Shown: piece by piece, positions 1 through 54,580 of the stretch
Position numbering within the stretch: position 1 is the first letter of the stretch
How the letters are laid out: each line of letters begins with the position of its first letter
Assembly: GCA_005881885.1 (NCBI GenBank)
Contig: VBDX01000133.1
Location: 15,461-79,460, forward strand
Length of the DNA: 64,000 bases
Reading direction: 5' to 3'
DNA from: Chloroflexota bacterium
GTDB taxonomy: Bacteria; Chloroflexota; Limnocylindria; P2-11E
Program-made: the position numbers and the translations under genes
Notes under the pieces: generated by a model
Databases searched by the model: none
Seen by the model: only the letters and a program-made list of their open reading frames with translations
What the model was told of the DNA's origin: nothing

Positions 1-4
1 GGGC

Positions 5-1873
5 ATGAAGATCAACCTCGTCGACACGCCCGGTTACGCCGACTTCGCCGGCGACCAGCACGCCGCGCTGCGGGTCGCGGATGCCGCGATCGTCTTTGTC
101 GATGCGTCCGCCGGGGTCCAGGTCGGCACGCAGACCGTCTGGTCCGAGCTCGAGAAGGGCCAGACGCCGCGCGTGGTGGTCGTCGGCCGCCTCGATCGGG
201 AGAACGCCGACTTTGACGAGGTTCTCGGGCAGCTCCGCGAGGCCTACGGCATCCGCGTAGTACCCCTGCACGTGCCTCTCGGCGAAAAACAGGAGCTCAA
301 GGCCACGATCGACCTGCTCCACGGGCAGATCCTGAAAGGTCCGAAGGATCCCGTCGCCGAGCTTGCGAAAGACGAAGAGGCCGAGCGCGTGGGCCAGTAC
401 CGCCAGCAGCTCGTCGAGTCGATTGTCGAGACCGACGAGGATCTGCTGACCCGCTATCTCGATGGCAAGGAGCTTGCGTACGACGAGCTCCGAGACGCGC
501 TCCATGCGGCGGTCCGCGAAGGGAAGGTCATCCCGGTCGTCGCCACGTCGGCGCACAAGCACGTCGGATATGCGGCGCTCCTCAACACGATCCGCGAGAT
601 GCTCCCCTCGCCCGCCGAAGCGGGATCGGTGATCGGGCGGTCGGCGTCGGGAGAGGAAGTCGCGCGCAAGCCCGATCCGGCGGACAAGCTCTCGGCATTC
701 GTCTTCAAGACCCTCGCCGATCCGTTCGTCGGCAAGCTCAGCTACGTCCGCGTGTACTCGGGAACGCTGCACCACAACGCGCAGGTCTACGACGCGACGA
801 AGAAGGAGACCGAGCGTGTCGGTCAGATCTTCTTCCTCCGGGGTAAGGAGCAGGAAGCGACCGAGGCGGTCGGCGCCGGCGACATCTGCGCCATCCCCAA
901 GCTCACCGCGACGACGACCAACGCCACGCTCTGCGATAAGGACGCCGTCATCCTCTACGACCCGATCGACTTCCCACCGCCTTCGTTCTCCGTGGCCATC
1001 GAGCCGTCGAGCAAGGCCGATCTGGACAAGCTCGCCACTGCGCTCCATAAGCTCACGGACGAGGATCCGACCTTGCACGTCCGCCGCGAGGATGCGACGC
1101 ACGAGACCATCTTGTCGGCGATCGGCGAGTCGGCGATCGAGGTCGCGGTGCATCATCTGAAGAACAAGTTCGGCGTCCAGGTCGACATGCGGACGCCCCG
1201 GGTCCCCTACCGCGAGTCGATCCGTTCGAAGGCGCAGGCGCAGGGTCGCTACAAGCGGCAGACCGGCGGCCACGGGCAGTTCGGCGATGTGTTCCTCGAG
1301 ATCGAGCCACAACCCGCGGGATCAGGGGTTGTGTATGCCACGCGGATCGTGGGCGGATCCGTCCCACGGAACTTCTGGCCCGCTGTCGAGAAGGGCGTCC
1401 GTGAGACCGCGGAGAGAGGGGTCATCGCGGGATACCCGCTGTCGGACTTCAAGGCGACGCTCTACGACGGGAGCTTCCACCAGGTCGACTCGAGCGAGAT
1501 GAGCTTCAAGATCGCCGGATCGCTCGCCCTGCAGAACTGTGTGAAGGAAGCGCAGCCTTTCCTGCTCGAACCGATCATGAACGTTGAGGTCTTGGTGCCC
1601 GAGGAGCAGATGGGCGACGTGCTCGCCGATCTCAACTCGCGACGGGGCCGAGTGCTCGGGATGGAGAGCACGGGCGCGGGACACCAGCTCATCAAGGCGC
1701 ACGTCCCCATGGCCGAGACCTTCCGCTACGCGACGGACCTTCGCTCGATGACCGGCGGGCGCGGGACCTTCAGCGCGGAGATCCTTGGGTACGAGGAGTG
1801 CCCATCGCACATCGCGCAGAAGGTGATCGCGGCACACGAAGGGCAGGCTGAGGAGACGGCAGCGGCGCGCTAG
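5..1873 (+). CDS. EF-G-like translational GTPase paralog, 5' end outside the window; switch-II reads DTPGY and the G4 motif reads GRLD instead of DTPGH and NKxD
   Basis: 622-aa ORF running off the window start. Domains III-V align to EF-G (GYPLSDF...HQVDSSEMSFKIA...LEPIM...RSMTGGRG...ECPSHIAQKVI). The N-terminal 'INLVDTPGYADF' and 'VVVVGRLDREN' replace the canonical DTPGH and NKxD motifs. Confidence 0.8.
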   Translation: MKINLVDTPGYADFAGDQHAALRVADAAIVFVDASAGVQVGTQTVWSELEKGQTPRVVVVGRLDRENADFDEVLGQLREAYGIRVVPLHVPLGEKQELKATIDLLHGQILKGPKDPVAELAKDEEAERVGQYRQQLVESIVETDEDLLTRYLDGKELAYDELRDALHAAVREGKVIPVVATSAHKHVGYAALLNTIREMLPSPAEAGSVIGRSASGEEVARKPDPADKLSAFVFKTLADPFVGKLSYVRVYSGTLHHNAQVYDATKKETERVGQIFFLRGKEQEATEAVGAGDICAIPKLTATTTNATLCDKDAVILYDPIDFPPPSFSVAIEPSSKADLDKLATALHKLTDEDPTLHVRREDATHETILSAIGESAIEVAVHHLKNKFGVQVDMRTPRVPYRESIRSKAQAQGRYKRQTGGHGQFGDVFLEIEPQPAGSGVVYATRIVGGSVPRNFWPAVEKGVRETAERGVIAGYPLSDFKATLYDGSFHQVDSSEMSFKIAGSLALQNCVKEAQPFLLEPIMNVEVLVPEEQMGDVLADLNSRRGRVLGMESTGAGHQLIKAHVPMAETFRYATDLRSMTGGRGTFSAEILGYEECPSHIAQKVIAAHEGQAEETAAAR

Positions 1874-2505
1874 GCTTTCCCCAGGGAATGCTCAGCTCGG
1901 CGCAGGTTTGGCTGAGGAGGCTGCCTCTCGTACTGGGCCTTTCCGGCCAGGAATATGAGCGGGCCACTCAAGACATCTCTGATGAACGGCTCGTTCTTTC
2001 TTCTGAGCCTTCCGAATTCGGTGCGGGTTAGTTCGACGAGATTCACCTCGCGGCGGAGTTGGCGCTCGACGCTGCCGAGAGCCCTTCGCAGGAGGTCGCT
2101 GTTCGGGGATCCCACGATCAGTACGTCGAGATCGCTTGTTGGCCGATCAGTGCGGGCGGCGTACGACCCAAAGATCCAGGCAGCGTCGATACCGGCGAGG
2201 CCGCCCAGCGCTCTGCGCAACGTCCCTTCAATCCCGATTGTCCGCTGCACGAGAGCCCGAATCTCGTTGGCGCTCGGCGAGTCAGTGTCGATCTCGTAGG
2301 TGCGATTTCGGCCCTGGATGGCTGAACGGAGAACCCCGGCACGCTCGAGCCGATCTAATTCACGTCCGACGGCCGAGGCGGCACGCCCAACCCCTCGCGC
2401 AATCTCGCGGACGTGCCCACGAGCACCAGGTCGGCTGAAGAAATACAGGAGGATCTCCTTACGCAGGGAAGATCGCCCGAAAACCAGCACGTCCAATACG
2501 TACAT
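1870..2505 (-). CDS. Winged-helix (ArsR-like) DNA-binding domain fused to a minimal nucleotidyltransferase (MNT / Pol-beta superfamily) domain
   Basis: N-terminal wHTH (HVREIARGVGRAASAVGRELDRLERAGVLRS). C-terminal 'WIFGSYAARTDRPTSDLDVLIVG' matches the GS...D.D nucleotidyltransferase motif. ATG at 2505; stop forms a palindromic CTAG overlap with the EF-G-like stop. Confidence 0.6.
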   Translation of the reverse strand: MYVLDVLVFGRSSLRKEILLYFFSRPGARGHVREIARGVGRAASAVGRELDRLERAGVLRSAIQGRNRTYEIDTDSPSANEIRALVQRTIGIEGTLRRALGGLAGIDAAWIFGSYAARTDRPTSDLDVLIVGSPNSDLLRRALGSVERQLRREVNLVELTRTEFGRLRRKNEPFIRDVLSGPLIFLAGKAQYERQPPQPNLRRAEHSLGKA

Positions 2506-5447: not shown

Positions 5448-7102
5448 TTCGCTTTTCCGGTCGCGGCCTCCGCGCGCTCGAGCTCGACGAGATATGCGTG
5501 CGTCAGCGGATCGTCCGCGTTGATCGCGCTGGCGAGGCGCAGCCGTTCGCGCGCGGCGCCGAGGTCACCGGCGCGAAGGTGCGCGAAGCCTGAGTCGGCA
5601 AGGTAGCCGGCGTCGCGCGGGCGCAGCGACGCCGCCTGATCGAGGAGCGCAAGGGCTTCGTTCTGCGATCCCGAAGCGAGCAGTGCGACGCCAAGCTCGT
5701 GCAGGACGTCGGGCTGGCCGGGAGCGAGCTCGAGCGCGCGCCGGAACGAGCTCGCAGCTGCGGGGAAGTCTTCCTGCTTACGAGCGACCAGCCCGAGACC
5801 GAAGTGCGCCTCCCACAGGTTCGGGTCGAATCCCAGCACTCTCATGAATGAGGCACGAACCTCGTCGTACGACAGCGGATTCGTGGAGAGCGCGGCCCGG
5901 CCGGCGCGCTCGAGATCGGTCTCGAGATCCGGCCGCTCGAGCCCGAGGCGCAGGCGTCTCGCCTGGCCGACCGTATCGGCGTCGGTCCCCGAGCTGATGA
6001 TCGCGCCGAGCGCGTGGCGCGCGTCGTCGATGCGTCCGGCAGCGATGTGCGCGCGCGCGAGGTGCGCTTCGGCGCTCGGACGGCCGTTCGCGGCGGCGCG
6101 CTCGAGGTACGAACGCGCACCTTCGTGGTCACCCTTTCCGAGCGCGAGCACGCCTAGAAGCTCCTGCGCACGGCCGAACGACTCGCTCCCTGCCGTGATC
6201 CGCCGAAGATGGGCGGCGGCCTGGCCCGGCGCGCCTTCGGCCACGTACAGCTCGGCCAGCATCATCACGTCGACATCGCGGAGCGGCCGCAGCGCGTGTG
6301 CGTGCTCCAGCGCCACGATCGCGTGGGTGGTCTCGCCGATCTGGCGGAGGAGCTCAGCGAGCATGTAGTGCGAGCGCCACGACATTGGCTTCGTCTCGAT
6401 GACTTCCTCGAGAGCGCGCGCCGCCCGCTCCTCGTCTCCGCGCTCGACGGACTCGGCGGCCAGCACGAGCAGCCGGTCCTCGGCCCGCAGTGACGCCGGG
6501 TCCGCACGGACCGCGGCGACGTAGAGCTGGAACGCGAGGACCCGCGCGGCGTCGGCCGCGGCGGGATCGCCCGCGCGCAGCAGCGTCGCGTTCACTTCTT
6601 CTTCGAGCCCGCCCAGTAGCGCGCGGTAGGCGGTCTCGTTCGCTGTCTCCGGCTCGTCGAGTCCCGCTTGGGCGGGCACCCCCAGCGCGCCGACGAGCCA
6701 CGCGGCGAGCGCCGGTTCTGCCCGATGGAGCTCCCCCTCGGCCACCGCGAATTCGCGCGACGCGACCGCACGGCGTGCCGCGACGTCCACCAGGGTCACC
6801 AGGAAGGCTTGACCGCGCTCGTCTTCCCGGTACAGGCCGGTGAGCGCGTGGGTCGTCCCGAGCGACTCGCCGTAGCGCACGGCCAGATCGGGGTCGGGTG
6901 TCGACCCGAAGATCAGGTATCCGGCGTCGCGCTTGGTCTCCGGCATGGCCACGAGGAAGACCGGCCGCAGCTCCAGCGCGGGATCGTCGGCGAAGCGCTC
7001 CACGAGCCGGCGGGCCACCTGCCGACCGATGATGCCCGCCTCAGCGTCACGGCCCTGCGCGCCAAACGGCACGACCGCGACGACGGGGCGCGGGGTCGTC
7101 AC
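5444..7102 (-). CDS. Tetratricopeptide-repeat protein
   Basis: Multiple TPR-like helical repeats (AxxYxxLG, EEAxxxxxRALELxP). GTG start overlaps the tyrS stop (GTGA). Confidence 0.7.
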   Translation of the reverse strand: MTTPRPVVAVVPFGAQGRDAEAGIIGRQVARRLVERFADDPALELRPVFLVAMPETKRDAGYLIFGSTPDPDLAVRYGESLGTTHALTGLYREDERGQAFLVTLVDVAARRAVASREFAVAEGELHRAEPALAAWLVGALGVPAQAGLDEPETANETAYRALLGGLEEEVNATLLRAGDPAAADAARVLAFQLYVAAVRADPASLRAEDRLLVLAAESVERGDEERAARALEEVIETKPMSWRSHYMLAELLRQIGETTHAIVALEHAHALRPLRDVDVMMLAELYVAEGAPGQAAAHLRRITAGSESFGRAQELLGVLALGKGDHEGARSYLERAAANGRPSAEAHLARAHIAAGRIDDARHALGAIISSGTDADTVGQARRLRLGLERPDLETDLERAGRAALSTNPLSYDEVRASFMRVLGFDPNLWEAHFGLGLVARKQEDFPAAASSFRRALELAPGQPDVLHELGVALLASGSQNEALALLDQAASLRPRDAGYLADSGFAHLRAGDLGAARERLRLASAINADDPLTHAYLVELERAEAATGKAN

Positions 7103-8262
7103 CGGAAGCGGATGCGTGCGAAGCTGCGCTTACCCACCTGGACCCACGGTTCGCCCTTGACCGCCACGGAGGTATCGAGCTTGGCGAGCTCGCCCTCCAC
7201 ACGCACCCCGTTCTGCTCTACGAGCCGCCGCGCGGCGGCCTTGCTCGGAGCGAGCTTGGCAAGGACGAGCAGGTCGACGATGGAGATCTCCTTCGCGCCA
7301 TTCGCCTTCACGTCGATCGTCGGCATGTCGACCGGCGCCCCGCCTTCTTTGTGCACGCGGTCGAACGCGCGCTCGGCCTCCTCGGCGGCAGCCGCGGAGT
7401 GGAGCTCGGTTGTGATGGTCCGAGCGAGCTTTCGTTTCGCCTCACGCGGGTGCAGCTCCTTGGCCGCGATCGCCCGGAGGGTCGCCTGCACCTCGCTCAT
7501 CGGGAGCTCCGTCGCCCATTCGAAGTAGTGCGACATGAGCTTGTCTTCGATCGACATGACCTTGCCGTAGACGTCGTTCGGCGGGTCGGTGAGCCAGATC
7601 GCCGTGGCCGGCTTCGACTTGCTCATCTTCTCGCCGTCGAGGCCCTCGAGAAGCTGATTGATGAAGACGCTCTGCGGGCGCTGACCGATCTGTTCCTGGA
7701 GCTCGCGACCGGCGAGTATGTTGAACAGCTGGTCCGTCCCGCCGACCTCGACGTCGGATTCGATCGCGACCGAGTCGTAGGCCTGCAGCAGCGGGTAGAG
7801 GATGTCCTTGATCGGGATCGGCGTCTTCTTCTCGAGGCGTTTGCGGAACTCCTCGCGCGCGAGCATCTGCTGCGTGGTGAAGCGGGACGCGAGACGGATG
7901 ACGTCGCCGAGCCCGAACTTTCCGAACCACTCGCTCTGCATGACGATGCGGACGCCCTCGCGCGGCACGATCTTGTGGAACTGATCGAGGTAGGTCTGCG
8001 CGTTCTCGAGCACCTTCTCGTGGGACATGGTCGGGCGAGCATCGTCGCGGTCGGTCGGGTCGCCGATCTGCGTCGTCCAGTCGCCGACGATGATCACGAT
8101 CTCGTGCCCCCACTCAGCGAAGCGCTTGAGCTTCCGCAGGGGCACGGCATGTCCGATGTGAAGGTTCGGGTGCGTCGGGTCGAAGCCCTGTTTGATACGA
8201 AGCTGACGCTCCCCGGCGCGGAGCTGTTTGGCGAGCTCCTCCTTCACGATGACCTGGCTCAT
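7099..8262 (-). CDS. tyrS: Tyrosyl-tRNA synthetase
   Basis: HIGH motif 'PNLHIGHA', KMSKS motif 'EKMSKS', C-terminal S4-like domain. ATG at 8262 (MSQVIVKEEL); the upstream 395 aa of the track ORF are GC-frame noise. Confidence 0.9.
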   Translation of the reverse strand: MSQVIVKEELAKQLRAGERQLRIKQGFDPTHPNLHIGHAVPLRKLKRFAEWGHEIVIIVGDWTTQIGDPTDRDDARPTMSHEKVLENAQTYLDQFHKIVPREGVRIVMQSEWFGKFGLGDVIRLASRFTTQQMLAREEFRKRLEKKTPIPIKDILYPLLQAYDSVAIESDVEVGGTDQLFNILAGRELQEQIGQRPQSVFINQLLEGLDGEKMSKSKPATAIWLTDPPNDVYGKVMSIEDKLMSHYFEWATELPMSEVQATLRAIAAKELHPREAKRKLARTITTELHSAAAAEEAERAFDRVHKEGGAPVDMPTIDVKANGAKEISIVDLLVLAKLAPSKAAARRLVEQNGVRVEGELAKLDTSVAVKGEPWVQVGKRSFARIRFR

Positions 8263-8487
8263 CGCGCGCGTGAGGAATTCGTCGACTTCGCGTTCTGAAG
8301 GACGGGCCGGCATCAGGGAGAAGGATAGGTGGCGGTTTCGAAGGGGCAGGGGCCCCTGGGCACGGAGTGACGCCCCTTCGGTCGCTACCATGGTCGAATC
8401 GCGCGCTCGAAAACGACGCTGGACCATGCCTTCCGGCGCGGGGCATATCGCTCGAAGCGGCGCCAGGGCGGCGGCTCGTTCAGCGGT

Positions 8488-10836
8488 TTGCGCCTCGCAC
8501 TGCCGTCGGGCCTGCTCGCCATGATCCTCGCGACGGCAGGGCTTCTCGTCGTGGGGGCAGGCGCGGCGCTCGCCTTCTTCACCGAGGACCTGCCCTCGCC
8601 ACAGGATCTCGCCAAGGCCCCGCTCGCGCAGGGGACCAAGGTCTACGACCGGACCGGCAACACGCTCCTTTACCAGTTCTCGGAGGAGAACCGCGAGGTC
8701 GTGGCCTTCGATCAAATCCCACAGGTGCTCGTCGACGCGACGGTCGCGGCCGAGGACAAGAGCTTCTGGAGCAACCCAGGCGTCGACGTGCTCGGGATCA
8801 TGCGGGCCGTCTACGCCGACCTCACCAGCCGCGGAACGGGCTCCGGCGGCGCGTCGACCATCACGCAGCAGCTTGTGAAGCAGCGGATCGTCGGCGGCGA
8901 GCTCTCCATCAAGCGAAAGATTCGCGAGGCCATCCTCGCGATCCAGGTCACAAACACCTATTCGAAGCAGCAGATCCTCGAGCTCTACTTCAATCAGATC
9001 TACTACGGCAATCAGGCGTACGGCGTGAAGGCCGCCGCGCAGACCTATTTCGGGAAGACCGATCTCACTCATCTCACCCTGGCTGAAGCCGCGCTCCTCG
9101 CGGGTCTGCCGCAGGCGCCTTCGGTCCTCGATCCGACCCAGGAGGCGAACGTGGACCGCGCCGAGGAACGGCGCGCCTACGTACTCGACCAGATGGTGGA
9201 GACGGGCGCGATCACCCAGCAGCAAGCCGACGCGGCGAACGCCGTGCCGATCAAGGTCGCCGGCCCGCCGGTCGCGACGATCAAGGCGCCGCACTTTGTC
9301 TTCCAGGTGCGGAACCAGCTGTCGCAGATCCTCGGTGGCGACGAGGCGGCCGTCACTCGCGGCGGCTACCGCGTCACGACCACGCTCGATCTGACCAAGC
9401 AGGAGATCGGCGAGCGGCAGGTGCGCGAATGGGTCGAGGAGCTCCACAACCGCAACGTCTGGAACGCGGCCCTCGTATCGATCGATCCGCGCAGCGGCGA
9501 GGTCCTCACCTACGTCGGTTCGGTCGACTACAACAACCGCGACGATCCGCGCGTGCAGGGCCAGTTCGACGTGGCGGGCATCGGGCTACGTCAGCCCGGC
9601 TCGTCCTTCAAGATGTTCAACTACGTGACTGCGCTCAAGAAGGGCGCGAGCGCGGCGACCGTGGTGGTTGACGCGCGCACCGACTTCACCGGGAAGGCCG
9701 ACCCCACGCGGATGAGCGCGACGGCCTGCGGCTACTGCCCGGAGAACGCCGACCTCCAGTACCACGGTCCGGTGACGATGCGCCAAGCGATCCGCGAATC
9801 TAGGAACGTACCGGCGGTCCGGTTCCTGGCTGAGTACTCGGGCATCGAGGACACCATCCAGACCGCGCATGAGCTGGGCATCACGACGGACATCGACTCG
9901 TCGAAGGTCGGGTTATCGCTGACGCTCGGAGCGCGCGAGGTGCACCTTGTCGACATGGCCAGCGCCTACGGCGTGCTCGCGAATATGGGTGTTCGGATCG
10001 CGCCGACGTACATCCTCAAGGTCGAGGATGCCCGCGGAAAGGTCGTCTGGGAGCACAAGGACTACGAGTCCAAGCGCGTGCTCGACCAGGGGATCGCCTG
10101 GATCATGACCGACATCCTCAAAGACACGACGCAGCCGTCGCGTAACTTCATCTTCGGCCAATGGACGAATATCGGTCGCGTGGCGGCGCTCAAGACCGGC
10201 ACGACCGACAACCTGAAGGACGTGTATTCGGTCGGCTACGTGCCCTCGCTGGTGACCGGGGTGTGGATGGGCAACTCGAACGGCGACCCTATGAGCTCGC
10301 GCGACTTCAACAGCGCGATGGGCCCCGGCCAGCTCTGGCGCGACTACATGAAGGAAGCGCTCACGGACACGCCGCCGTCGGACTGGCAGCGTCCGTCCAA
10401 CGTCGTGAGCGGCACGGTCGTCTCCGCGCCCGGCGCGTTCGGCGGATATGGCTCGGGCCTTCTTCCGTCGAGCCTCACGCCGTTCTCGACCACGGAGTGG
10501 TTCATCAAGGGCACGGAGCCCGCGAGGACCGACGACTGGTTCGTCGCGGGGTGCCAGCTACCCGACGGGTCACGGAAGGTCGCGATGAGGATCCAGGACA
10601 CCCACGCGCCGGCGGCCTTCCAGCGATACACGGACCAGTGGATCCGCGATGCGATCGCCGGCCGGCATACGTACGGCCGGTACACCTGGAACCTCGTGAG
10701 CCCAGATCCCTGCCCGACGCCGTCCCCGACGCCGTCGCCCTCGCCGACGCCGTTCTTCGGGTTCCCCACCCCGACGCCGACGCCTTTCTTCGGCTCGACC
10801 CCTACGCCGCGACCGACCAGCACCAAGAGGCCGTAG
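8488..10836 (+). CDS. Class A penicillin-binding protein (transglycosylase + transpeptidase, PBP1A family) with a C-terminal Pro/Thr/Ser-rich tail
   Basis: N-terminal TM helix, GT51 motifs ([19 protein letters not shown]), transpeptidase domain, and a (PT)n-type tail [29 protein letters not shown] start; ATG at 8521 is an alternative. Confidence 0.85.
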
Positions 10837-10841
10837 CCCGG

Positions 10842-11300
10842 GTGGCCGAGGATCCGGCCGTCAGCGCGATCGTCGCCTGCGTCGATCCGAGCGGCCGGAT
10901 CCTCGTCGTCAAACAGCATCGCGGACCATTCGCCGGTGCCTGGATCCTGCCCGGAGGGAACGTCGAGCGGGGCGAGCGGGTCGAGGATGCGGCCCGCCGC
11001 GAGCTCCTCGAAGAGACCGGCTATCGCACCACTGATCTGCGACTTGTGGCTCGCTATGAGGTGAGGAGCCTGCCACCGGATGGCTTCCACTTCCTCGTCC
11101 ACATGTTCCGCGCCGGTGACCTCGCCGGGGAGCCGCGTGCGGAAGCCGGTGGTGCGATGCGCTGGCAAGATCCCCGCGCGAGCGATGCGCACCCGAGCCT
11201 GGTCACGGCTCTCGCCGATCTCGGTCTCATCGATCCCGATCGCGCAGCCCTGTTTCACAGGCTCTCACAGATTGGCGTCGAGATGCGCCGCGTCTCTTAG
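10842..11300 (+). CDS. NUDIX hydrolase
   Basis: Nudix box '[24 protein letters not shown]'. GTG start 6 nt after the PBP stop; the longer ORF in the track overlaps the PBP gene. Confidence 0.7.
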
Positions 11301-11332
11301 GCGGGAAGGCCATTGCTCACTGGTAGCGCCCT

Positions 11333-13699
11333 CTACAGCCGGACGATCGTGGCCCCATCCCCGCCCTCGGACTGACCCGCGGGCTCATGCGCGCGAACCA
11401 GAGGATGCTGCGCCAGTGCGGCGCGGATGGCCGTGCGTAGCGCGCCCGTGCCCTTTCCGTGGACGATCCGCAGGCGCTCAACGCCCGCGACCGCGGCGTC
11501 ATTCAGGTAGCGATCGAGCACCGCGAGCGCCTCCTCGGCTCGCGCGCCGCGAAGATCGAGCTGCAGCGGCACGCTCGGCGCTGAACCGTGCACGACAGGT
11601 CTCTCCGAACGGATCGGGGAGCTCTGCTCCCTACCTCCCGGCGCGGGTCGAAGCTGCGAAGCGGGAACGCGCAGCCGCAGGGCGCCGGCGGCGACGTCCG
11701 CAAGCCCGCGGTCGTCGATAGCGAGCAGCGTTCCCGGCTCGGCGACCCCCTCCACGAGCACGGGCGAGCCGATGGCGATGGGAATGGACGTGCGGGGAGC
11801 GGGCGCCGATCCGGTCGATGCGGCCCGCGCGGACTCCGCCTCGGCGAGCGCCGCGCGCGCGTCGTCGACGAGGTTCCGTTTGGCCGCACGGTCGCGGGCG
11901 TCCTCGGCCTGGCGCAGCGCGCGGCGCGCCTGCAAAAGGAGCTCGTCGGCCTCGGCGTGGGCACGCCGCAGCGCGCGCCGCGCCTCATCGCGAACACGTT
12001 CGGCCTCGCGCTCCGCCTCGGTGGTCGCGTCCGAGGCGTCGGCCGCGGCGACTCGTGCTTCCTCGAGCGCGGCGGCCAGCTCAGTCCGCTGGCGCTCGGC
12101 CTCGCGGAGCGTCCGCTCGAGCGAGCGGTGCAGCTCCCCCAGGTGCGTGTCCGCGCGCCCGAGGACCGCGCGGTCGAGGCCGAGACGCTCCGCGATCGCG
12201 AAGGCATTCGACGCGCCCGGCAGGCCGACATGCAGGCGGAACGTCGGCCGGAGCGTCTCCGAGTCGAATTCCATGCTCGCGTTGCGCACGCCCGGCGTGC
12301 TGAGCGCGAACGCCTTGAGCTCAGGGTAGTGCGTCGTCGCCGCGACGAGCACCCCCCGCTCGAGCAGCGTCTCGAGCACCGCCATGGCCAGCGCCGCGCC
12401 CTCATCCGGGTCGGTGCCGGCGCCGATCTCATCGAGCAAGGCAAGATCGCCGCGCTCCGCCCCCGCGAGCGTCGCGACGACGTTGCGCAGGTGCGAGGAG
12501 AACGTCGAGAGCGACTGCGCGATGGACTGCTCGTCGCCGATGTCCGCGAAGATGCGTCGCAGCACCGGCACGCGGCTGTTCGGCGCCGCGGGAATGGCGA
12601 GGCCGCAGGCGGCCATCAGCGTGAGAAGCCCGATGGTCTTCAGCGTGACGGTCTTGCCGCCGGTGTTCGGCCCGGTGATGACGAGCACGCGGAACTCCCC
12701 GCCGAGCTCCGCGTCTATCCCCACGACGTTCCCCTGCTCGACCAGCAAGGGGTGGCGTGCGTCTACGAGATCGAGGATCCCTTCGGCGTTCAGCGCGGGC
12801 CGGCTTGCCTCGAGCGCATCGGCATAGAGCGCTTTCGCGATCGCCAGATCGAGCCCAGCGAGCGCCTGCAGCACGGCGTCGAGGTCATCTGCGGAGCGCT
12901 CGACACGACGGGAGAGCTCGTCGAGGATGCGCTGGACCTCGGCGCGTTCGGCGAGCTCGGCTTCGCGAAGGACGTTGTTCGCCTCCATGATCTCGAGCGG
13001 CTCGATGAAGACGGTCTGCCCGCTCGCGGACTGGTCGTGGACGATCCCCTTCACCGCGCCACGGTGCTCGGCCTTGACCGGGACGACGTAGCGGCCCCCG
13101 CGCTGCGTGACGATGGGGTCCTGAAGCAGACGCGCCAGGTCGGGAGAGCGGACGAGCCCGTCGAGCCGCTGCTGGAGGCGCGCCTGCGCGGCCCGCAGGT
13201 CGGCGCGGAGCGAGCCGAGGCGGATGCTCGCGCGGTCCAGCACTTCACCTGTGGATCCGATCGCGTTCTCGATCGCGCCGGCGACGTCCGATGGAGGCCG
13301 CGCGAAACGCGCTCGTCCGGCGAGCGGCGGATACGGCCGGACGTCAGCGAAGAGGTGCTCCGCCGCGCGCACCGTGTCGGACACCGCGACGAGCTGCTCG
13401 GGGTCGAGCGTTCCCCCAAGGCGTGCGCGCCGCAGCGCGTCGCGGATGTCCCGCGCGCCGCGTAGGCCGCTCGACGGGCTCGCCCGCATCAGGTCGCGCG
13501 CGGCCGCTGTCTCGTCCTGGAGGCGCTCGGCCTCGCGAACGTCGGAGGTCGGGAAAAGTGCGTGGGCCAGCTCGCGGCCCGGCGCGAAGGCGGTGCGCTC
13601 GGCGAGGAGCGCGCGGATCGCGGGCAGCTCGAGACGGGCGAAAGCGCCCTCGTTCAAGGCCGGGATATCCCGGACGAGCCGCGGATGTAGAAGCGCCAC
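11333..13699 (-). CDS. mutS2: Endonuclease MutS2 (MutS domain + C-terminal Smr)
   Basis: Walker A 'ITGPNTGGKTVTLKT', Walker B 'LLDEIGAGTDPDEG', C-terminal Smr 'LDLRGARAEEALAVLDRYLNDA ... IVHGKGTGALR'. Confidence 0.85.
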   Translation of the reverse strand: MALLHPRLVRDIPALNEGAFARLELPAIRALLAERTAFAPGRELAHALFPTSDVREAERLQDETAAARDLMRASPSSGLRGARDIRDALRRARLGGTLDPEQLVAVSDTVRAAEHLFADVRPYPPLAGRARFARPPSDVAGAIENAIGSTGEVLDRASIRLGSLRADLRAAQARLQQRLDGLVRSPDLARLLQDPIVTQRGGRYVVPVKAEHRGAVKGIVHDQSASGQTVFIEPLEIMEANNVLREAELAERAEVQRILDELSRRVERSADDLDAVLQALAGLDLAIAKALYADALEASRPALNAEGILDLVDARHPLLVEQGNVVGIDAELGGEFRVLVITGPNTGGKTVTLKTIGLLTLMAACGLAIPAAPNSRVPVLRRIFADIGDEQSIAQSLSTFSSHLRNVVATLAGAERGDLALLDEIGAGTDPDEGAALAMAVLETLLERGVLVAATTHYPELKAFALSTPGVRNASMEFDSETLRPTFRLHVGLPGASNAFAIAERLGLDRAVLGRADTHLGELHRSLERTLREAERQRTELAAALEEARVAAADASDATTEAEREAERVRDEARRALRRAHAEADELLLQARRALRQAEDARDRAAKRNLVDDARAALAEAESARAASTGSAPAPRTSIPIAIGSPVLVEGVAEPGTLLAIDDRGLADVAAGALRLRVPASQLRPAPGGREQSSPIRSERPVVHGSAPSVPLQLDLRGARAEEALAVLDRYLNDAAVAGVERLRIVHGKGTGALRTAIRAALAQHPLVRAHEPAGQSEGGDGATIVRL

Positions 13700-31955: not shown

Positions 31956-34900
31956 ATGGCCCGAAGGTCGTCAGCGGTCCTAGGACGGCCCCCTGTACCA
32001 GTTCGCCCCTCTACACAGAACAGCGCAGGACTAATCCTCCAGGTTGTGTACGAGGTTAGGGAGGGCGGATCCCACTGGGTCCGCGGATTCGCCGGAGCGC
32101 TTGTCGTCGTCATCGCGGCGCTTGGGTTCGTCGTGTGGTCCCCGATGCCCACGCCCCTCACCGAGTTCGGGTTCCACGCCTCGCTTGTCGATCAAGGCCC
32201 GTCACCGGCGCTCGCGCCCGGCGCGGCGACCACCTATTCGATGCAGTTCCGCAATACCGGCCTCGTCGCGTGGCAACGCGGGACCGAGAAACAGGTGACG
32301 CTAGGCGTCAGCGGTGACGCGCGTAGTTACGCCGACTCGGGCATGGCGGTCGACTGGCTCTCGCCCGCTCGGATCGCGACCACGTCGGAAGGGCTCGTGC
32401 TTCCCGGGATGATCGGAACGTTCACCTTCAACGTGCGCGCACCGATGACACCGGGTACCTATCGCGTGCCGGTCCGACTGGTCGTAGACGGATTAGCTTG
32501 GCTCGACCACGAGCCGGTGGCCCTCTCGATCACCAGCGACCTCGGATTCCATAGCCGGTTTCTCGATCAATCGGCGCACGTCATCCTCAAACCCGGGGAG
32601 ATGAGCGCTCCTTTGATGCTGCACATCCGAAACACCGGGGCGAAGACCTGGAGCCGCGGCGTCCCCGGGCAGCAGGCGAACCTCGGACTGACCGGCGATG
32701 ATCGAGCGCTCAGCGCGCTCGGGGTTGGTTGGCCCTCACCGGATCGCGTGGCCATCCAGAGCGAGCCGAGCGTGGGGCCGGGCGCCGTGGCGACCTTCAC
32801 CTTCCGTGTCCGGGGTCCATATGTCCCGGGCACCTATGCCCTGCGCCTGCGGCCCGTCGTCGACGGCCTCACGTGGCTCGAGGACGAGGGGATCGTGAGT
32901 CTCATCACGGTCCTCGATCCCTCCGGCGCGGCGGCCACGCCGGTGCCTGGCGAGGCCTTCAAGAACGTCCAGCCGACCGGCTTCGCGTTCGACGCATCCG
33001 TCGATCCGAGTAGCGTCGCGCCGGGCAAGTCGGTGAACATCAGCGCGACCGTCGCGACCGGATCGACCGGAAACGCCCTGATCGGCGTCGAGGTCTACTC
33101 TCCGAGCGGCACCACGCTGGCCTTCCAGAAGTGGTTCCACAACGAGAACTTCATCGCCGGGCAGGCCAAGTCCTACAGCGTGAGCTGGGATGTCCCGTTC
33201 GGCACCGCCTCTGGGACGTACACCGTAACCGTCAGCGCCTACGCCGATGCCTGGAAGACGCGGTACGCCGCGAAGGCGTCGGCCGCCAAGTTCGCCGTCG
33301 CCGCGCCGCTCGTCACTCCGCCTTCGCCCGCGCCCACCGGAACGGCGGCCCCGACGGCCACCGCGCCCCTTGGCTCGACCGCGCCGAGTGCGACGCCGAC
33401 GGCGGCGCCCACCGTCGCGCCAACCGCGACCCCAGCCCCGACCGCGAGCCCGTCCGCCAGCTTCGCGTCGACGGCATCGCTCAGCCTGACGAGCGTCCTC
33501 GCCGGCGGATCGGTCGGCCTGACCGACAACGTCACCAGCGCCACGGCCACGAGTGCGCTCGTCGACATCGAGCTCTGGGCAGCGGCCGCCGCGAGCCCCG
33601 TTTATCAGGTGTGGTTTGACAACCAGACCTTCGCTGCCGGCCAACAGCGCTCGTATCCTGCGACCTGGCAGGTCCCCGCCAACGCCGCCGTGGGGACTTA
33701 CACCGTGAAGCTCGGCGTCTACGCGCCGCAGTGGGCTTCGCTCTACGGGATGACCGACGGCGGCACGTTCACGGTCGCCGCGGCCGCCCCCGCGCCGTCA
33801 CCGGCGCCGACGGCGGCGCCCACGCCCGTGCCGACGGCTGCGCCTACGCCCGTGGCGACGCCGGCCCCCACGGCTGCGCCGACACCGGTCCCGACCGCCG
33901 TTCCGACCCCCGTGCCGACAGTCGTTCCGACACCAGTCCCGACCCCGGTCCCGACCGCGGCGCCGACCCCGACGCCGGTTCCCACGGCCGCGCCGTCGCC
34001 GAGCTTCACGTCGACCTCCGCGCTCGTCCCGACGAGCGTCGCGCTCGGCGGCTCGATCACGATCACGTCGAAGGTCACGAGCGCAACCGCGGTCACGGGG
34101 ATCGTCAACATCGAGGTGTACGCGCCCGGCGCTCCGACAGGCTCGTACCAGGTCTGGTACGACAACCAGTCCTTCGCGGCGGGCCAGCAGCGTACCTACA
34201 CCTCGACGTGGGCCGTGCCTCTCACCGGAGCGACCGGAACGTACAAGGTCGCCATCGGGGTGTACTCGCTGGGCTGGACGACGCTGTATACGCTGTCCGA
34301 TCCCGCCGGGACGTTCACCGTCACGTCGGCCGCGCCGACACCCGTTCCGACCGTCGCGCCGACGCCTGTGCCGACCCCCGCGCCGACGAGCGTGCCGACT
34401 CCGACCCCCGCGCCGACCGCGACGCCGGCTCCGGGCGCGCTCTCGCCGTTGCACGTGCAGGGCAACAAGCTGGTCAACGCGTCCGGTCAAACAGTCGTGC
34501 TTCACGGCGTGAACCACTCCGGCACCGAGTACGCCTGCGTCCAGGGCTGGGGCATGGGCGACGGGCCGACGTACGACCAGTCGGTGGTCACGGCGATCAA
34601 GAGCTGGCGGACGAACGCGGTGCGCGTGCCGCTCAATGAGGATTGCTGGCTCGCGATCAACGGCGTCCCGGCCGCGTATTCCGGCGCGACCTACCAGCAG
34701 TTCATCAAGAACTGGGTGACCCTGCTCAATAACAACGGCATCTACGCGATCCTCGAGCTCAAGTGGACCGCGCCCGGAGGCACCCCTGCGACGGGCCAGG
34801 TGCCGATGCCCGATATCGATCACTCGCCAACCTTCTGGTCACAGGTCGCAAACGCCTACAAGGGGAACAACGCCGTCATCTTCGAGCTCTTCAACGAGCC

Positions 34901-35423
34901 GTTCCCCGACAACCAGCAGAACAGCACCGCGGCGTGGACATGCTGGCGCGACGGCGGCACGTGCTCGGGCGTCTCATTCCAGGCGGCCGGCATGCAGAGC
35001 CTCGTGAATGCCGTGCGCGGCACCGGAGCGACGAACGTTGTCGCGCTCGGTGGCGTCTCCTACGCCAATGCGCTCTATCAATGGTTGGCCTACAAGCCGA
35101 ACGACCCGCTCAACAACATGGCCGCGGTGTGGCACGTCTACAACTTCAACATCTGCAACACCGTCAGCTGCTACAACGCGAACGCCGGACCGGTCCTCGC
35201 ACAGGTCCCGGTGATCGTGACGGAGACCGGCGCCGACACGTGCGACGCGACGTGGTGGAACACCTACCTGAGCTGGCTCGACACCAGCGGCGTGAGCTAC
35301 CTCGCCTGGGTCTGGAACACCTGGGGTGCTTCGTGCACGACGCTCTCATTGATCAACGACTACGCAGGCACGCCTACGCAGATGGGGCAGATCTACAAGA
35401 CCCACCTCGGCGGGCTTCCCTAA
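31956..35423 (+). CDS. Large membrane-anchored/secreted multidomain glycoside hydrolase: N-terminal TM, 2 + 3 tandem beta-sandwich repeats separated by Pro/Thr/Ala linkers, C-terminal GH5 (cellulase-family) catalytic domain
   Basis: GH5 signature '[11 protein letters not shown]' (acid/base) and 'VIVTETGAD' (nucleophile). Repeats ending 'GTYTVTVS', '[10 protein letters not shown]' and '[10 protein letters not shown]', separated by (TP/AP)n linkers. Confidence 0.8.
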
Positions 35424-54455: not shown

Positions 54456-54484
54456 ATTGAGCGCTCGTTGACGCTGGGTTGACC
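54456..54484 (+). promoter_or_regulatory. Triple direct-repeat element ATTGAGC-gctc-GTTGACG-ctgg-GTTGACC upstream of the 979-aa secreted protein
   Basis: Exact 11-bp periodicity. It overlaps the TTG used as the ORF start in the track, which argues for a later true start. Confidence 0.55.
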
Positions 54485-54580
54485 GGAATGGGCAAAGAGC
54501 GGCGCTATCGCGAGGCGCGTTCCGAAAGGTCATGCCGTCGCCGCAGCGCTCCTCAATCCGCGACGTGTTTGATCCCACCC

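What the first reader, a model, noticed from the sequence alone, without database searches (positions are those of the whole stretch)
5..1873. EF-G paralog with both the catalytic histidine (DTPGH to DTPGY) and the NKxD guanine-specificity motif (to GRLD) replaced
Domains III-V are clearly EF-G-like. In the visible part of the G domain, however, the switch-II histidine that activates the hydrolytic water in all translational GTPases is a tyrosine. The G4 motif has also lost its Asn and Lys.

This combination predicts a factor that cannot hydrolyse GTP, and may not bind guanine nucleotides, yet retains the ribosome-binding domains. It could be a pseudo-GTPase EF-G2-type paralog, for example with a ribosome-protection or hibernation-like role. 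The P-loop lies upstream of the window and could not be inspected.
Basis: partly seen in the sequence, partly recalled or inferred. Interest (0 to 1): 0.6.

Follow-up and report, generated by a model that had tools for sequence, protein, structure and literature searches.

The report
Ordinary EF-G2-type paralog, soil Chloroflexota
The window starts inside a gene for a known second type of elongation factor G (EFG II / EF-G2) from a soil Limnocylindria bacterium.

Summary
Window 1-1873 (+) encodes the last 622 residues of an EF-G-like protein. DTPGY aligns to DTPGH and GRLD to NKMD of canonical EF-G. A near-identical scaffold gives the full 695-aa gene, with an intact P-loop (GHGGSGKTS) and switch I (RHITI).

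The protein belongs to the published EFG II (EF-G2) subfamily:
- It carries every EFG II marker residue.
- It separates from canonical EF-G with 100/100 bootstrap support.
- It passes NCBIfam NF009381 and fails the canonical model TIGR00484.
- It lies outside the str operon.

Loss of the histidine is the family rule. Of 144 EFG II-type cluster representatives, 141 lack it, and most have Tyr or Phe. Lys-to-Arg in G4 recurs in 23 of 150 representatives. His-to-Tyr is already described for M. smegmatis EF-G2 (GTPase-poor) and occurs in T. thermophilus EF-G-2 (GTPase-active). Tyr alone therefore does not predict a dead enzyme.

All nucleotide-binding elements, including the guanine-specifying Asp, are conserved under strong purifying selection, so loss of guanine-nucleotide binding is unlikely.

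I could not show a canonical fusA in these genomes. Verdict: a new member of a known kind, of low to moderate interest. The clade is unusually well conserved for an EFG II.

The parts
1..1873 (+). 3' part (codons 73-695 plus TAG stop) of an EFG II / EF-G2-type elongation factor G paralog. The 5' 73 codons lie before the window.
   Evidence: Translation. Pfam five-domain EF-G architecture. NCBIfam NF009381 scores 807 bits against a cutoff of 583. The full gene was recovered on L004 at 10633-12720(-), whose C-terminal 622 aa are identical to the window.
5..610 (+). Visible part of the G domain including the G' insertion (full-length residues 74-275)
   Evidence: Pfam GTP_EFTU matches residues 2-202 at profile positions 70-188. 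The best solved-structure matches for the G domain are T. thermophilus EF-G-2 (1WDT, 215 bits) and M. smegmatis EF-G2 (9K0Z, 192 bits), against 171 bits or less for canonical EF-G.
23..37 (+). G3 / switch II motif DTPGY (Tyr84 replaces the catalytic His)
   Evidence: Aligned to DTPGH of S. aureus EF-G. Close homologs have F 89, Y 30, H 0. Family representatives have Y 75, F 29, H 7 of 150.
185..196 (+). G4 motif GRLD (NKxD with Asn to Gly and Lys to Arg; Asp kept)
   Evidence: Aligned to NKMD. Arg135 and Asp137 are invariant in 119 homologs. Arg occurs at this position in 23 of 150 family representatives.
545..559 (+). G5 region TSAHK (canonical G[ST]A[FL]K)
   Evidence: Alignment to 1WDT and 2XEX. 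S[AS] is kept in the close homologs.
689..937 (+). Domain II, carrying the EFG II marker residues Thr (FKT, nt 704-727), Gly (LRGKE, nt 836-850) and Lys (IPKL, nt 893-904)
   Evidence: Pfam EF-G_D2 / GTP_EFTU_D2. Positions 291, 333 and 352 in 1WDT numbering are T, G, K, against V/I, A, G in canonical EF-G (PMC3150367).
971..1192 (+). Domain III
   Evidence: Pfam EFG_III, 1.3e-25.
1196..1555 (+). Domain IV with intact tip loops: GRYKRQTGGHGQ (nt 1244-1279, the basic EFG II-type loop I) and YDGSFHQVDSSE (nt 1463-1498)
   Evidence: Pfam EFG_IV, 1.7e-39. Loop I is nearly invariant in 120 homologs. Positions 471/472 are K/R, against K/K typical of EFG II.
1562..1822 (+). Domain V
   Evidence: Pfam EFG_C, 3.6e-29.

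Best explanation
Identity (about 0.95; shown). This is the gene for an EFG II (EF-G2-type) paralog of elongation factor G from a Candidatus Limnocylindria (Chloroflexota) soil bacterium, cut by the window edge. It is a stand-alone gene with its own promoter-like site. It is divergent from yebC-ruvC-ruvA-nusA-infB and lies outside the str operon.

Mechanism (inferred; about 0.45). The protein still binds GTP/GDP and Mg2+. The P-loop, switch-I Arg/Ile/Thr, DxxG, the G4 Asp and G5 are all kept under purifying selection. It docks on the ribosome like EF-G, because domains II-V and both domain IV tip loops are intact.

The water-positioning His is an interchangeable Phe/Tyr. The P-loop Ile and Asp that contact the sarcin-ricin loop are both Gly. 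Ribosome-stimulated GTP hydrolysis of the canonical kind is therefore probably very slow or absent.

I take it to act as an alternative, slow, GTP-sparing translocase used during slow growth or starvation, as reported for Bacteroides EF-G2. A canonical EF-G encoded elsewhere would do fast translocation and ribosome recycling.
For: Identity:
- NF009381 (a PRK12740 EF-G2-like subcluster) scores 905 bits for the full-length protein against a cutoff of 583. The canonical model TIGR00484 scores 639, below its cutoff of 659.
- All EFG II marker positions of Margus et al. are present: G16 and L25 on L004 and in homologs, and D216, V250, L264, T291, G333, K352, K471, R472 in the window.
- A neighbour-joining tree splits canonical EF-Gs from the group containing this protein and T. 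thermophilus EF-G-2 in 100 of 100 bootstraps.
- There is no rpsL/rpsG/tuf within 10 kb in 74 loci.

A functional, constrained gene:
- The G1-G5 nucleotide contacts are conserved in 119 homologs.
- dN/dS is 0.045 for the gene and 0.06 for the G domain.
- Identity between two genomes is 83%, equal to NusA (84%) and IF-2 (81%).

Poor hydrolysis:
- Phe (89) and Tyr (30) interchange at the His position, so the side-chain hydroxyl is not needed.
- H88Y nearly abolishes GTPase in M. smegmatis EF-G1. M. smegmatis EF-G2, which has Tyr, has minimal ribosome-dependent GTPase.
- An EF-G paralog that translocates without GTP hydrolysis is established (Han et al. 2023, as cited in PMC12775393).

Translocase-like: the domain IV loops are intact and nearly invariant.
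Against: - No biochemistry exists for this clade.
- T. thermophilus EF-G-2 is the closest solved G domain. It has GHAGSGKT, DAPGY and TKLD and is reported GTPase-active, so the aromatic residue alone does not prove inactivity.
- M. smegmatis EF-G2 keeps similar domain IV loops but is described as a non-recycling stress factor whose loops sit away from the tRNA. Intact loops therefore do not prove translocation.
- From my memory of Han et al. (not held in the library), the Bacteroides protein owes its lack of GTPase to a family-specific 26-residue region. This protein fails the Bacteroides model NF058620 (548 bits against 1000).
- A canonical EF-G partner in Limnocylindria was not found with the tools available.
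Confidence: 0.5

Rival explanations
1. An active GTPase of the EFG II type. Like T. thermophilus EF-G-2, it hydrolyses GTP (intrinsically and on the ribosome) without the His and works as a second, conventional but slower translocase.
For: - The closest solved G domain is T. thermophilus EF-G-2 (215 bits), which shares GH.GSGKT, D.PGY and xK/RLD.
- That protein is reported to have GTPase and translocation activity.
- The Limnocylindria proteins keep the P-loop His and the switch-I Arg, Ile and Thr that M. smegmatis EF-G2 has lost.
- The G domain is under strong purifying selection.
Against: - Most clade members have Phe rather than Tyr, so no polar group is available at the catalytic position.
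- The P-loop Ile (hydrophobic gate) and Asp (sarcin-ricin-loop contact) are both Gly.
- H88Y in a canonical EF-G nearly abolishes GTPase.
Confidence: 0.25
2. A non-translocating ribosome-binding stress or regulatory factor, as proposed for M. smegmatis EF-G2. It would occupy the factor site of non-rotated ribosomes under stress, without translocation or recycling.
For: - It belongs to the same subfamily and has the same His-to-Tyr change as M. smegmatis EF-G2, which lacks ribosome-dependent GTPase and recycling and is described as stress-specific.
Against: - The Limnocylindria protein is only distantly related to the actinobacterial subgroup. Its G2 is R[HRK]I[TS]I rather than QQRSV, and its P-loop is GHGGSGKT rather than GPSGGGKT.
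- It is as conserved as IF-2 and NusA, which fits a core translation role better than an accessory one.
- No stress-related genes are linked to it.
Confidence: 0.2
3. The main or only EF-G of Limnocylindria. The class would then run elongation with a His-less translocase.
For: - Conservation is unusually high for an EFG II: 78-96% across the class, equal to NusA and IF-2, with dN/dS 0.045.
- G2 is close to canonical RGITI.
- No canonical fusA was seen in the window or in about 1 Mb of related loci.
Against: - The DNA examined is only the neighbourhood of this gene, so the absence of fusA there says nothing.
- In 305 genomes, a single EF-G was always EFG I, and EFG II was always accompanied by another EF-G (PMC3150367).
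- The gene is not in the str operon.
Confidence: 0.04
4. A true pseudo-GTPase that no longer binds guanine nucleotides (the stronger form of the first reader's idea).
For: Asn and Lys of NKxD are both replaced.
Against: - The guanine-specifying Asp is invariant, and Arg can replace Lys in packing against the base.
- GxxxxGK[TS], the Mg2+-binding Thr/Ser, DxxG and G5 S[AS] are all conserved.
- G domain dN/dS is about 0.06.
- M. smegmatis EF-G2 (TKLD, with more degenerate motifs) has been imaged on the ribosome. From my memory of Seshadri et al. 2009, it still binds guanine nucleotides.
Confidence: 0.04
5. A tetracycline-type ribosomal protection protein or other EF-G-derived family (RF3, LepA, BipA).
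For: Weak NCBIfam matches to these families.
Against: - tet_protect scores 360 bits against a cutoff of 775. RF3, LepA and TypA score far below their cutoffs.
- Domain IV is of EF-G type with the EF-G loops.
Confidence: 0.01

Closest known systems
EFG II subfamily of elongation factor G (Margus, Remm & Tenson 2011, PMC3150367); NCBIfam NF009381 (PRK12740.1-5)
   Same: - All subfamily marker residues are present: G16, L25, D216, V250, L264, T291, G333, K352 and a basic domain IV loop I.
- The gene is outside the str operon.
- It groups with EFG II in 100 of 100 bootstraps.
- It passes NF009381.
   Different: - It evolves slowly. EFG II is described as fast-evolving, but here conservation equals IF-2 and NusA.
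- G2 keeps Arg-x-Ile-Thr-Ile, close to canonical RGITI, where the subfamily consensus is xxxSx.
- G4 Lys is an invariant Arg and Asn is Gly/Ser/Thr/Ala.
Thermus thermophilus EF-G-2 (PDB 1WDT / 2DY1)
   Same: It is the best solved-structure match for the G domain (215 bits). The P-loop is GHAGSGKTTL against GHGGSGKTSL, the catalytic position is DAPGY against DTPGY, and the domain IV loop is QTGGHGQ. Overall identity is 41%.
   Different: - T. thermophilus has TKLD against GRLD and HRTTV against RHITI.
- Its domains II-III are much more diverged.
- It is reported GTPase-active. Most Limnocylindria homologs have Phe, not Tyr.
Mycobacterium smegmatis EF-G2 (PDB 9K0Z / 9K10)
   Same: It belongs to the same subfamily. 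DTPGYADF is identical around the replaced His, and G4 has Asn replaced (TKLD). The published interpretation is a GTPase-poor stress factor.
   Different: M. smegmatis EF-G2 has also lost the P-loop His (GPSGGGKT) and the switch-I Arg/Ile/Thr (QQRSV). The Limnocylindria protein keeps these.
Bacteroides thetaiotaomicron EF-G2 (PDB 8DMF / 7UVP)
   Same: It is an EF-G paralog that supports translocation without GTP hydrolysis (Han et al. 2023, cited in PMC12775393). This is the functional model I favour.
   Different: This protein is not a member of that subgroup. NF058620 scores 548 bits against a cutoff of 1000 and matches only residues 7-510. The Bacteroides protein is longer (718 aa).
Canonical EF-G (EFG I, fusA; TIGR00484)
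   Same: It has the five-domain fold and EF-G-type domains III-V. Identity to S. aureus EF-G is about 40%, and Foldseek E-values to EF-G structures are about 1e-70.
   Different: - AHIDAGKT is GHGGSGKT, RGITI is RHITI, DTPGH is DTPGY/F and NKxD is GRLD.
- It scores below the TIGR00484 cutoff.
- It is not in the str operon.

Membership tests
EFG II (EF-G2-type) subfamily, Margus et al. 2011 | P-loop type I positions: Gly16 (Ala in EFG I) and Leu25 (Thr in EFG I) | tested here: met
   These positions are not in the window. On the near-identical scaffold L004 and in homologs the P-loop is VVGHGGSGKTSL / ...TTL. Numbering was checked on the verified 1WDT sequence.
EFG II (EF-G2-type) subfamily, Margus et al. 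2011 | Domain II type I positions: Thr291, Gly333, Lys/Arg352 (Ile/Val, Ala, Gly in EFG I) | tested here: met
   The window protein has T, G, K; S. aureus EF-G has V, A, G.
EFG II (EF-G2-type) subfamily, Margus et al. 2011 | Type II positions: Asp216, Val250, Leu264, Lys471, Lys472 (basic loop I of domain IV) | tested here: met
   The window protein has D, V, L, K, R. Position 472 is Arg, as in 16 of 150 representatives.
EFG II (EF-G2-type) subfamily, Margus et al. 2011 | G2 motif RGITI relaxed to xxxSx (Chloroflexi subgroup r/kxxSI) | tested here: inconclusive
   The clade has R[HRK]I[TS]I, with Thr in 107 and Ser in 12 of 119. Gly is lost, but the motif stays closer to canonical than the subfamily consensus. 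It is compatible with the Chloroflexi pattern r/kxxSI if Thr/Ser is allowed.
EFG II (EF-G2-type) subfamily, Margus et al. 2011 | Phylogenetic separation from EFG I | tested here: met
   A neighbour-joining tree of 154 sequences over 673 columns separates the canonical set (S. aureus, Dictyoglomus and 3 others) from the rest, which includes this clade and T. thermophilus EF-G-2, in 100 of 100 bootstraps. This was neighbour-joining only, with few canonical sequences.
EFG II (EF-G2-type) subfamily, Margus et al. 2011 | Gene lies outside the str operon (rpsL-rpsG-fusA-tuf) | tested here: met
   The neighbours are yebC, ruvC, ruvA, nusA and infB (divergent) and a convergent nucleotidyltransferase gene. 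No S12 and no second EF-G were found in 74 loci totalling 1.05 Mb.
EFG II (EF-G2-type) subfamily, Margus et al. 2011 | Always accompanied by another EF-G (EFG I, or the spdEFG pair) in the same genome | not testable with these tools
   Only the gene's neighbourhood can be read. The window has no second EF-G. A search seeded with the best-scoring canonical representative returned Dictyoglomus and Firmicutes, not Limnocylindria.
NCBIfam NF009381 (PRK12740.1-5, 'elongation factor G' subfamily of the EF-G2-like cluster) | Whole-protein score at or above the curated cutoff of 583 bits | tested here: met
   The window fragment scores 807 bits. Full-length homologs score 875-905 bits.
Canonical EF-G (EFG I; TIGR00484 equivalog) | Score at or above 659.4 bits; motifs AHxDxGKT, RGITI, DTPGH, NKxD; str-operon location | tested here: not met
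   Full-length homologs score 622-641 bits. All four motifs differ. The gene is not in the str operon.
EF-G2 equivalogs NF009377 and Bacteroides-type NF058620 | Score at or above 890 and 1000 bits respectively | tested here: not met
   The scores are 680-690 and 514-556 bits. The protein belongs to the same broad kind but to different subgroups.
Tetracycline ribosomal protection proteins (NF012153) | Score at or above 775 bits | tested here: not met
   The scores are 290-360 bits.

The most novel reading that the evidence does not exclude
In Limnocylindria this His-less EFG II is as constrained as IF-2 and NusA. It might therefore be the principal translocase of these slow-growing soil oligotrophs, or even the only one. 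In that case a whole bacterial class would run routine elongation without His-catalysed GTP hydrolysis on EF-G, as a standing GTP-sparing mode of translation.
Probability: 0.06. Interest if true: 0.8.

Novelty: new member of a known kind. Interest (0 to 1): 0.22.

Why it matters
The direct value is modest. It adds a soil-abundant, uncultured Chloroflexota class to the EFG II / EF-G2 family.

Two points may be useful to specialists:
- A survey of the 150 nearest 50%-identity clusters shows that losing the catalytic His is the rule for EFG II (141 of 144), with Tyr or Phe the usual replacement. The 2011 family description, which called G3 'conserved (DxPG)', does not bring this out.
- The Limnocylindria clade is an unusually slow-evolving EFG II. 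It keeps most sarcin-ricin-loop and Mg2+ contacts but freely swaps Tyr and Phe at the catalytic position. That makes it a clean natural test of whether the aromatic residue does any chemistry.

If the protein proved to be the main translocase, it would bear on the open question of what GTP hydrolysis by EF-G is for.

Tried and rejected
1. Second EF-G in the window. A tblastn search of the protein against all 64 kb found only itself.

2. Canonical fusA in Limnocylindria.
- I queried the big protein database with the best-scoring canonical-type representative (P0146). It turned out to be Dictyoglomus EF-G, and the top 120 hits were Dictyoglomus and Firmicutes, so the search was uninformative.
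- I found no way to seed a search specific to the Limnocylindria canonical gene. I left the last protein search and the metagenome scan unused rather than spend them on low-odds queries.

3. Residue in B. thetaiotaomicron EF-G2. I tried to see which residue it has at the His position by querying the PDB with representative P0210. 7UVP was not among the printed alignments, so this remains unknown here.

4. Han et al. 2023 (PMC9841332) is not held in the library. Its content is cited second-hand or from memory, and is marked as such.

5. Rfam scan of the 5' leader on L004. The only match was sub-threshold and due to chance, so there is no known riboswitch or leader.

6. AlphaFold model and Foldseek. 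The model (pLDDT 71.9) confirmed an EF-G fold over the full length. It does not separate EF-G from EF-G2 structures, because all TM-scores are about 0.5 owing to domain arrangement.

7. Pseudogene or decaying G domain. Rejected on dN/dS of 0.045-0.06 and intact ORFs in 68 GTDB genomes.
Full report
**What is in the window**

Bases 5-1873 on the + strand translate without interruption into 622 residues ending at TAG 1871-1873. Pfam finds the C-terminal two-thirds of a translational G domain (profile positions 70-188), followed by EF-G domains II, III, IV and V.

The frame is open to the window edge. The ATG at base 5 is therefore not a start codon. An ENA metagenome scaffold (L004, CRIT18-1_SAMN08902880_METAG-scaffold_36) is identical to window 1-2505 at 2504 of 2505 positions. 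It carries the complete 695-codon gene, and the window protein is exactly its residues 74-695.

The missing 73 residues contain an intact P-loop, VVGHGGSGKTSL, and a switch I motif, RHITI.

**Checking the observation**

In the phmmer alignment to S. aureus EF-G (2XEX), DTPGY pairs with DTPGH and VVGRLDR pairs with FVNKMDK, with no gaps nearby. A 158-sequence MAFFT alignment anchored on T. thermophilus EF-G-2 gives the same correspondence.

The substitutions are real and are inherited, not errors. Among the 119 closest database homologs that cover these motifs (78-96% identity, from Candidatus Limnocylindria / Chloroflexota MAGs):
- The His position is Phe in 89 and Tyr in 30, and never His.
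- G4 is [GSTA]R[LMA]D, with Arg and Asp invariant.
- The P-loop is GHGG[SA]GKT[ST].
- G2 is R[HRK]I[TS]I.

The Asp of NKxD, the residue that specifies guanine, is kept. Only Asn and Lys are replaced.

**What it is**

NCBIfam scores:
- The best model is NF009381, a subcluster of the PRK12740 EF-G2-like cluster. Full-length proteins score 875-905 bits against a cutoff of 583.
- The canonical EF-G equivalog TIGR00484 is missed, at 622-641 bits against a cutoff of 659.
- The tetracycline-protection, RF3, LepA and TypA models are far below their cutoffs.

The G domain's best solved relatives are the two structurally characterised EFG II proteins: T. thermophilus EF-G-2 (1WDT, 215 bits) and M. smegmatis EF-G2 (9K0Z, 192 bits). 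Canonical EF-Gs score 171 bits or less.

Margus, Remm and Tenson (PMC3150367) defined EFG II by five differentially conserved positions (Gly16, Leu25, Thr291, Gly333, Lys/Arg352). They added positions conserved in EFG II but relaxed in EFG I, of which I tested Asp216, Val250, Leu264 and Lys471/472. This protein has all of them, with Arg at 472; S. aureus EF-G has the EFG I states.

A neighbour-joining tree of 154 sequences separates five canonical-type sequences from everything else in 100 of 100 bootstraps. The other side includes this clade and T. thermophilus EF-G-2.

**Genomic context**

The gene stands alone on its strand. Upstream and divergent lie yebC, ruvC, ruvA, a small flp-like gene, nusA, ylxR, infB and rbfA. 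Downstream is a convergent nucleotidyltransferase gene, followed by NDH-2, a TPR protein and tyrS.

None of 74 related loci (1.05 Mb) has rpsL or a second EF-G within 10 kb. By the published criterion, EFG I resides in the str operon. This gene does not.

**How unusual is the motif combination?**

I searched 1.84 billion 50%-identity cluster representatives with the full-length homolog and aligned the best 150.
- 144 of them are EFG II-type (Lys or Arg at position 352), and only 3 of those keep the His.
- Across all 150, the residue at the His position is Tyr in 75 and Phe in 29. Asp, Ala, Leu, Asn and Ser appear in the rest.
- The G4 Lys is Arg in 23, Gly in 10 and Gln in 9.
- Asn is replaced by Thr, Ser or Gly in 34.
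- The G4 Asp is kept in 133.
- Tyr/Phe together with Arg occurs in 16 other clusters.

It is also already in the literature. In M. smegmatis EF-G2 the catalytic H88 of EF-G1 is replaced by Y98, which points away from the gamma-phosphate. Asn and Met of NKMD are replaced by Thr and Leu, and the protein has minimal ribosome-dependent GTPase. An H88Y mutation in EF-G1 nearly abolishes GTPase (bioRxiv 10.64898/2026.05.25.727771). That work follows Baid and Sengupta 2025, FEBS J, as cited.

**What the changes do and do not predict**

Three EFG II proteins have been studied.
- T. thermophilus EF-G-2 has Tyr at this position. It is reported to have intrinsic and ribosome-dependent GTPase activity and to translocate.
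- M. smegmatis EF-G2 has Tyr and is GTPase-poor. It is described as a stress-specific factor that cannot recycle ribosomes.
- Bacteroides EF-G2 translocates without hydrolysing GTP (Han et al. 2023, cited in PMC12775393).

Tyr alone is therefore not diagnostic of a dead enzyme.

For the Limnocylindria clade I infer that canonical ribosome-activated hydrolysis is weak or absent, for two reasons.
- Phe and Tyr interchange freely, so no polar group is required at that position.
- The P-loop Ile and Asp of AHIDAGKT, described as hydrophobic-gate and sarcin-ricin-loop contacts, are both Gly.

Against this, the P-loop His and the switch-I Arg, Ile and Thr are retained, unlike in the mycobacterial protein. 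A T. thermophilus-like residual activity remains a serious rival.

Loss of nucleotide binding is unlikely.
- Every nucleotide-contacting element is conserved.
- G domain dN/dS is about 0.06 in the least saturated comparison.
- The protein is 83% identical between two genomes in which NusA is 84%, IF-2 81%, YebC 78% and TyrRS 71% identical.

Domain IV keeps both tip loops nearly invariant. For this reason I favour an alternative, slow, GTP-sparing translocase (about 0.45) over a non-translocating stress binder (about 0.2) or a conventional active GTPase (about 0.25).

**What could not be shown**

The tools read only about 10 kb around a known protein, and I had no Limnocylindria-specific seed for the canonical gene.

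One attempt used the best-scoring canonical representative. It landed on Dictyoglomus and Firmicutes.

The expectation that a canonical EF-G exists rests on the published rule from 305 genomes. A lone EF-G is always EFG I, and EFG II is always accompanied by another EF-G. It also rests on the non-str-operon location. I put the 'only EF-G' reading at about 4%.

**Other checks**

An AlphaFold model (pLDDT 71.9) matches EF-G structures over its full length, with Foldseek E-values of about 1e-70. It does not discriminate EF-G from EF-G2.

The short 5' leader has a conserved -10-like GAATACTAT and a Shine-Dalgarno sequence, but no Rfam element.

**Verdict**

The 'cannot hydrolyse / may not bind' part is overstated. 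The feature is a new, unusually well-conserved member of a known and already characterised kind.

Noticed in passing
window 1870-1873: The TAG stop of the EF-G-like gene (+) and the stop of the convergent nucleotidyltransferase gene (1870-2505, -) overlap in the palindrome CTAG. This leaves no intergenic space for a terminator.
   Followed up: partly
L004 12721-12797 (5' leader of the same gene, just before window base 1): The leader is very short, and the yebC start codon lies about 45-75 nt away on the other strand. A -10-like GAATACTAT is conserved in 14 loci. L004 alone carries an inserted G/C hairpin (GGGGGGCTCCGCCCCCC) that the 97%-identical L008 lacks. There is no Rfam match.
   Followed up: partly
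L011, L034, L057, L071 (GTDB records): L011, L034 and L071 are contigs filed under Bathyarchaeia, Saccharimonadales and Thermoanaerobaculia MAGs that carry 78-91% identical copies of this Limnocylindria gene. They are most likely mis-binned contigs. L057, also filed under Bathyarchaeia, carries only a 44%-identical EF-G-like gene.
   Followed up: no
L004 vs L001 (two Limnocylindria genomes): The paralog is as conserved (83%) as NusA (84%) and IF-2 (81%), and more so than TyrRS (71%) or YebC (78%). This is unusual for EFG II, which is described as fast-evolving.
   Followed up: yes
P0217 (cluster representative, not in the window): A 1040-aa canonical-type EF-G (AHIDAGKTTV, RGITI, DTPGH, NKMD) with a 342-residue N-terminal extension. 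It may be a fusion or a gene-calling artefact.
   Followed up: no
window 31956-35423 and 54479-57418: Two large secreted-looking proteins: a 1155-aa GH5 cellulase with Ig-like/MG2 domains, and a 979-aa protein with an N,N-dimethylformamidase beta-subunit-like (DMFA2_C) domain plus a Big_3_5 domain.
   Followed up: no
window 7099-9447 (-): The mechanical ORF is 782 aa, but the TyrRS domain starts at residue 413, and the gene called on L004 is 404 aa. The long ORF is a high-GC artefact upstream of the real start.
   Followed up: partly
window 5-1873: the ORF listing reported this as a closed ORF starting at ATG 5, although the frame is open to the window edge. The ATG is internal Met74.
   Followed up: yes
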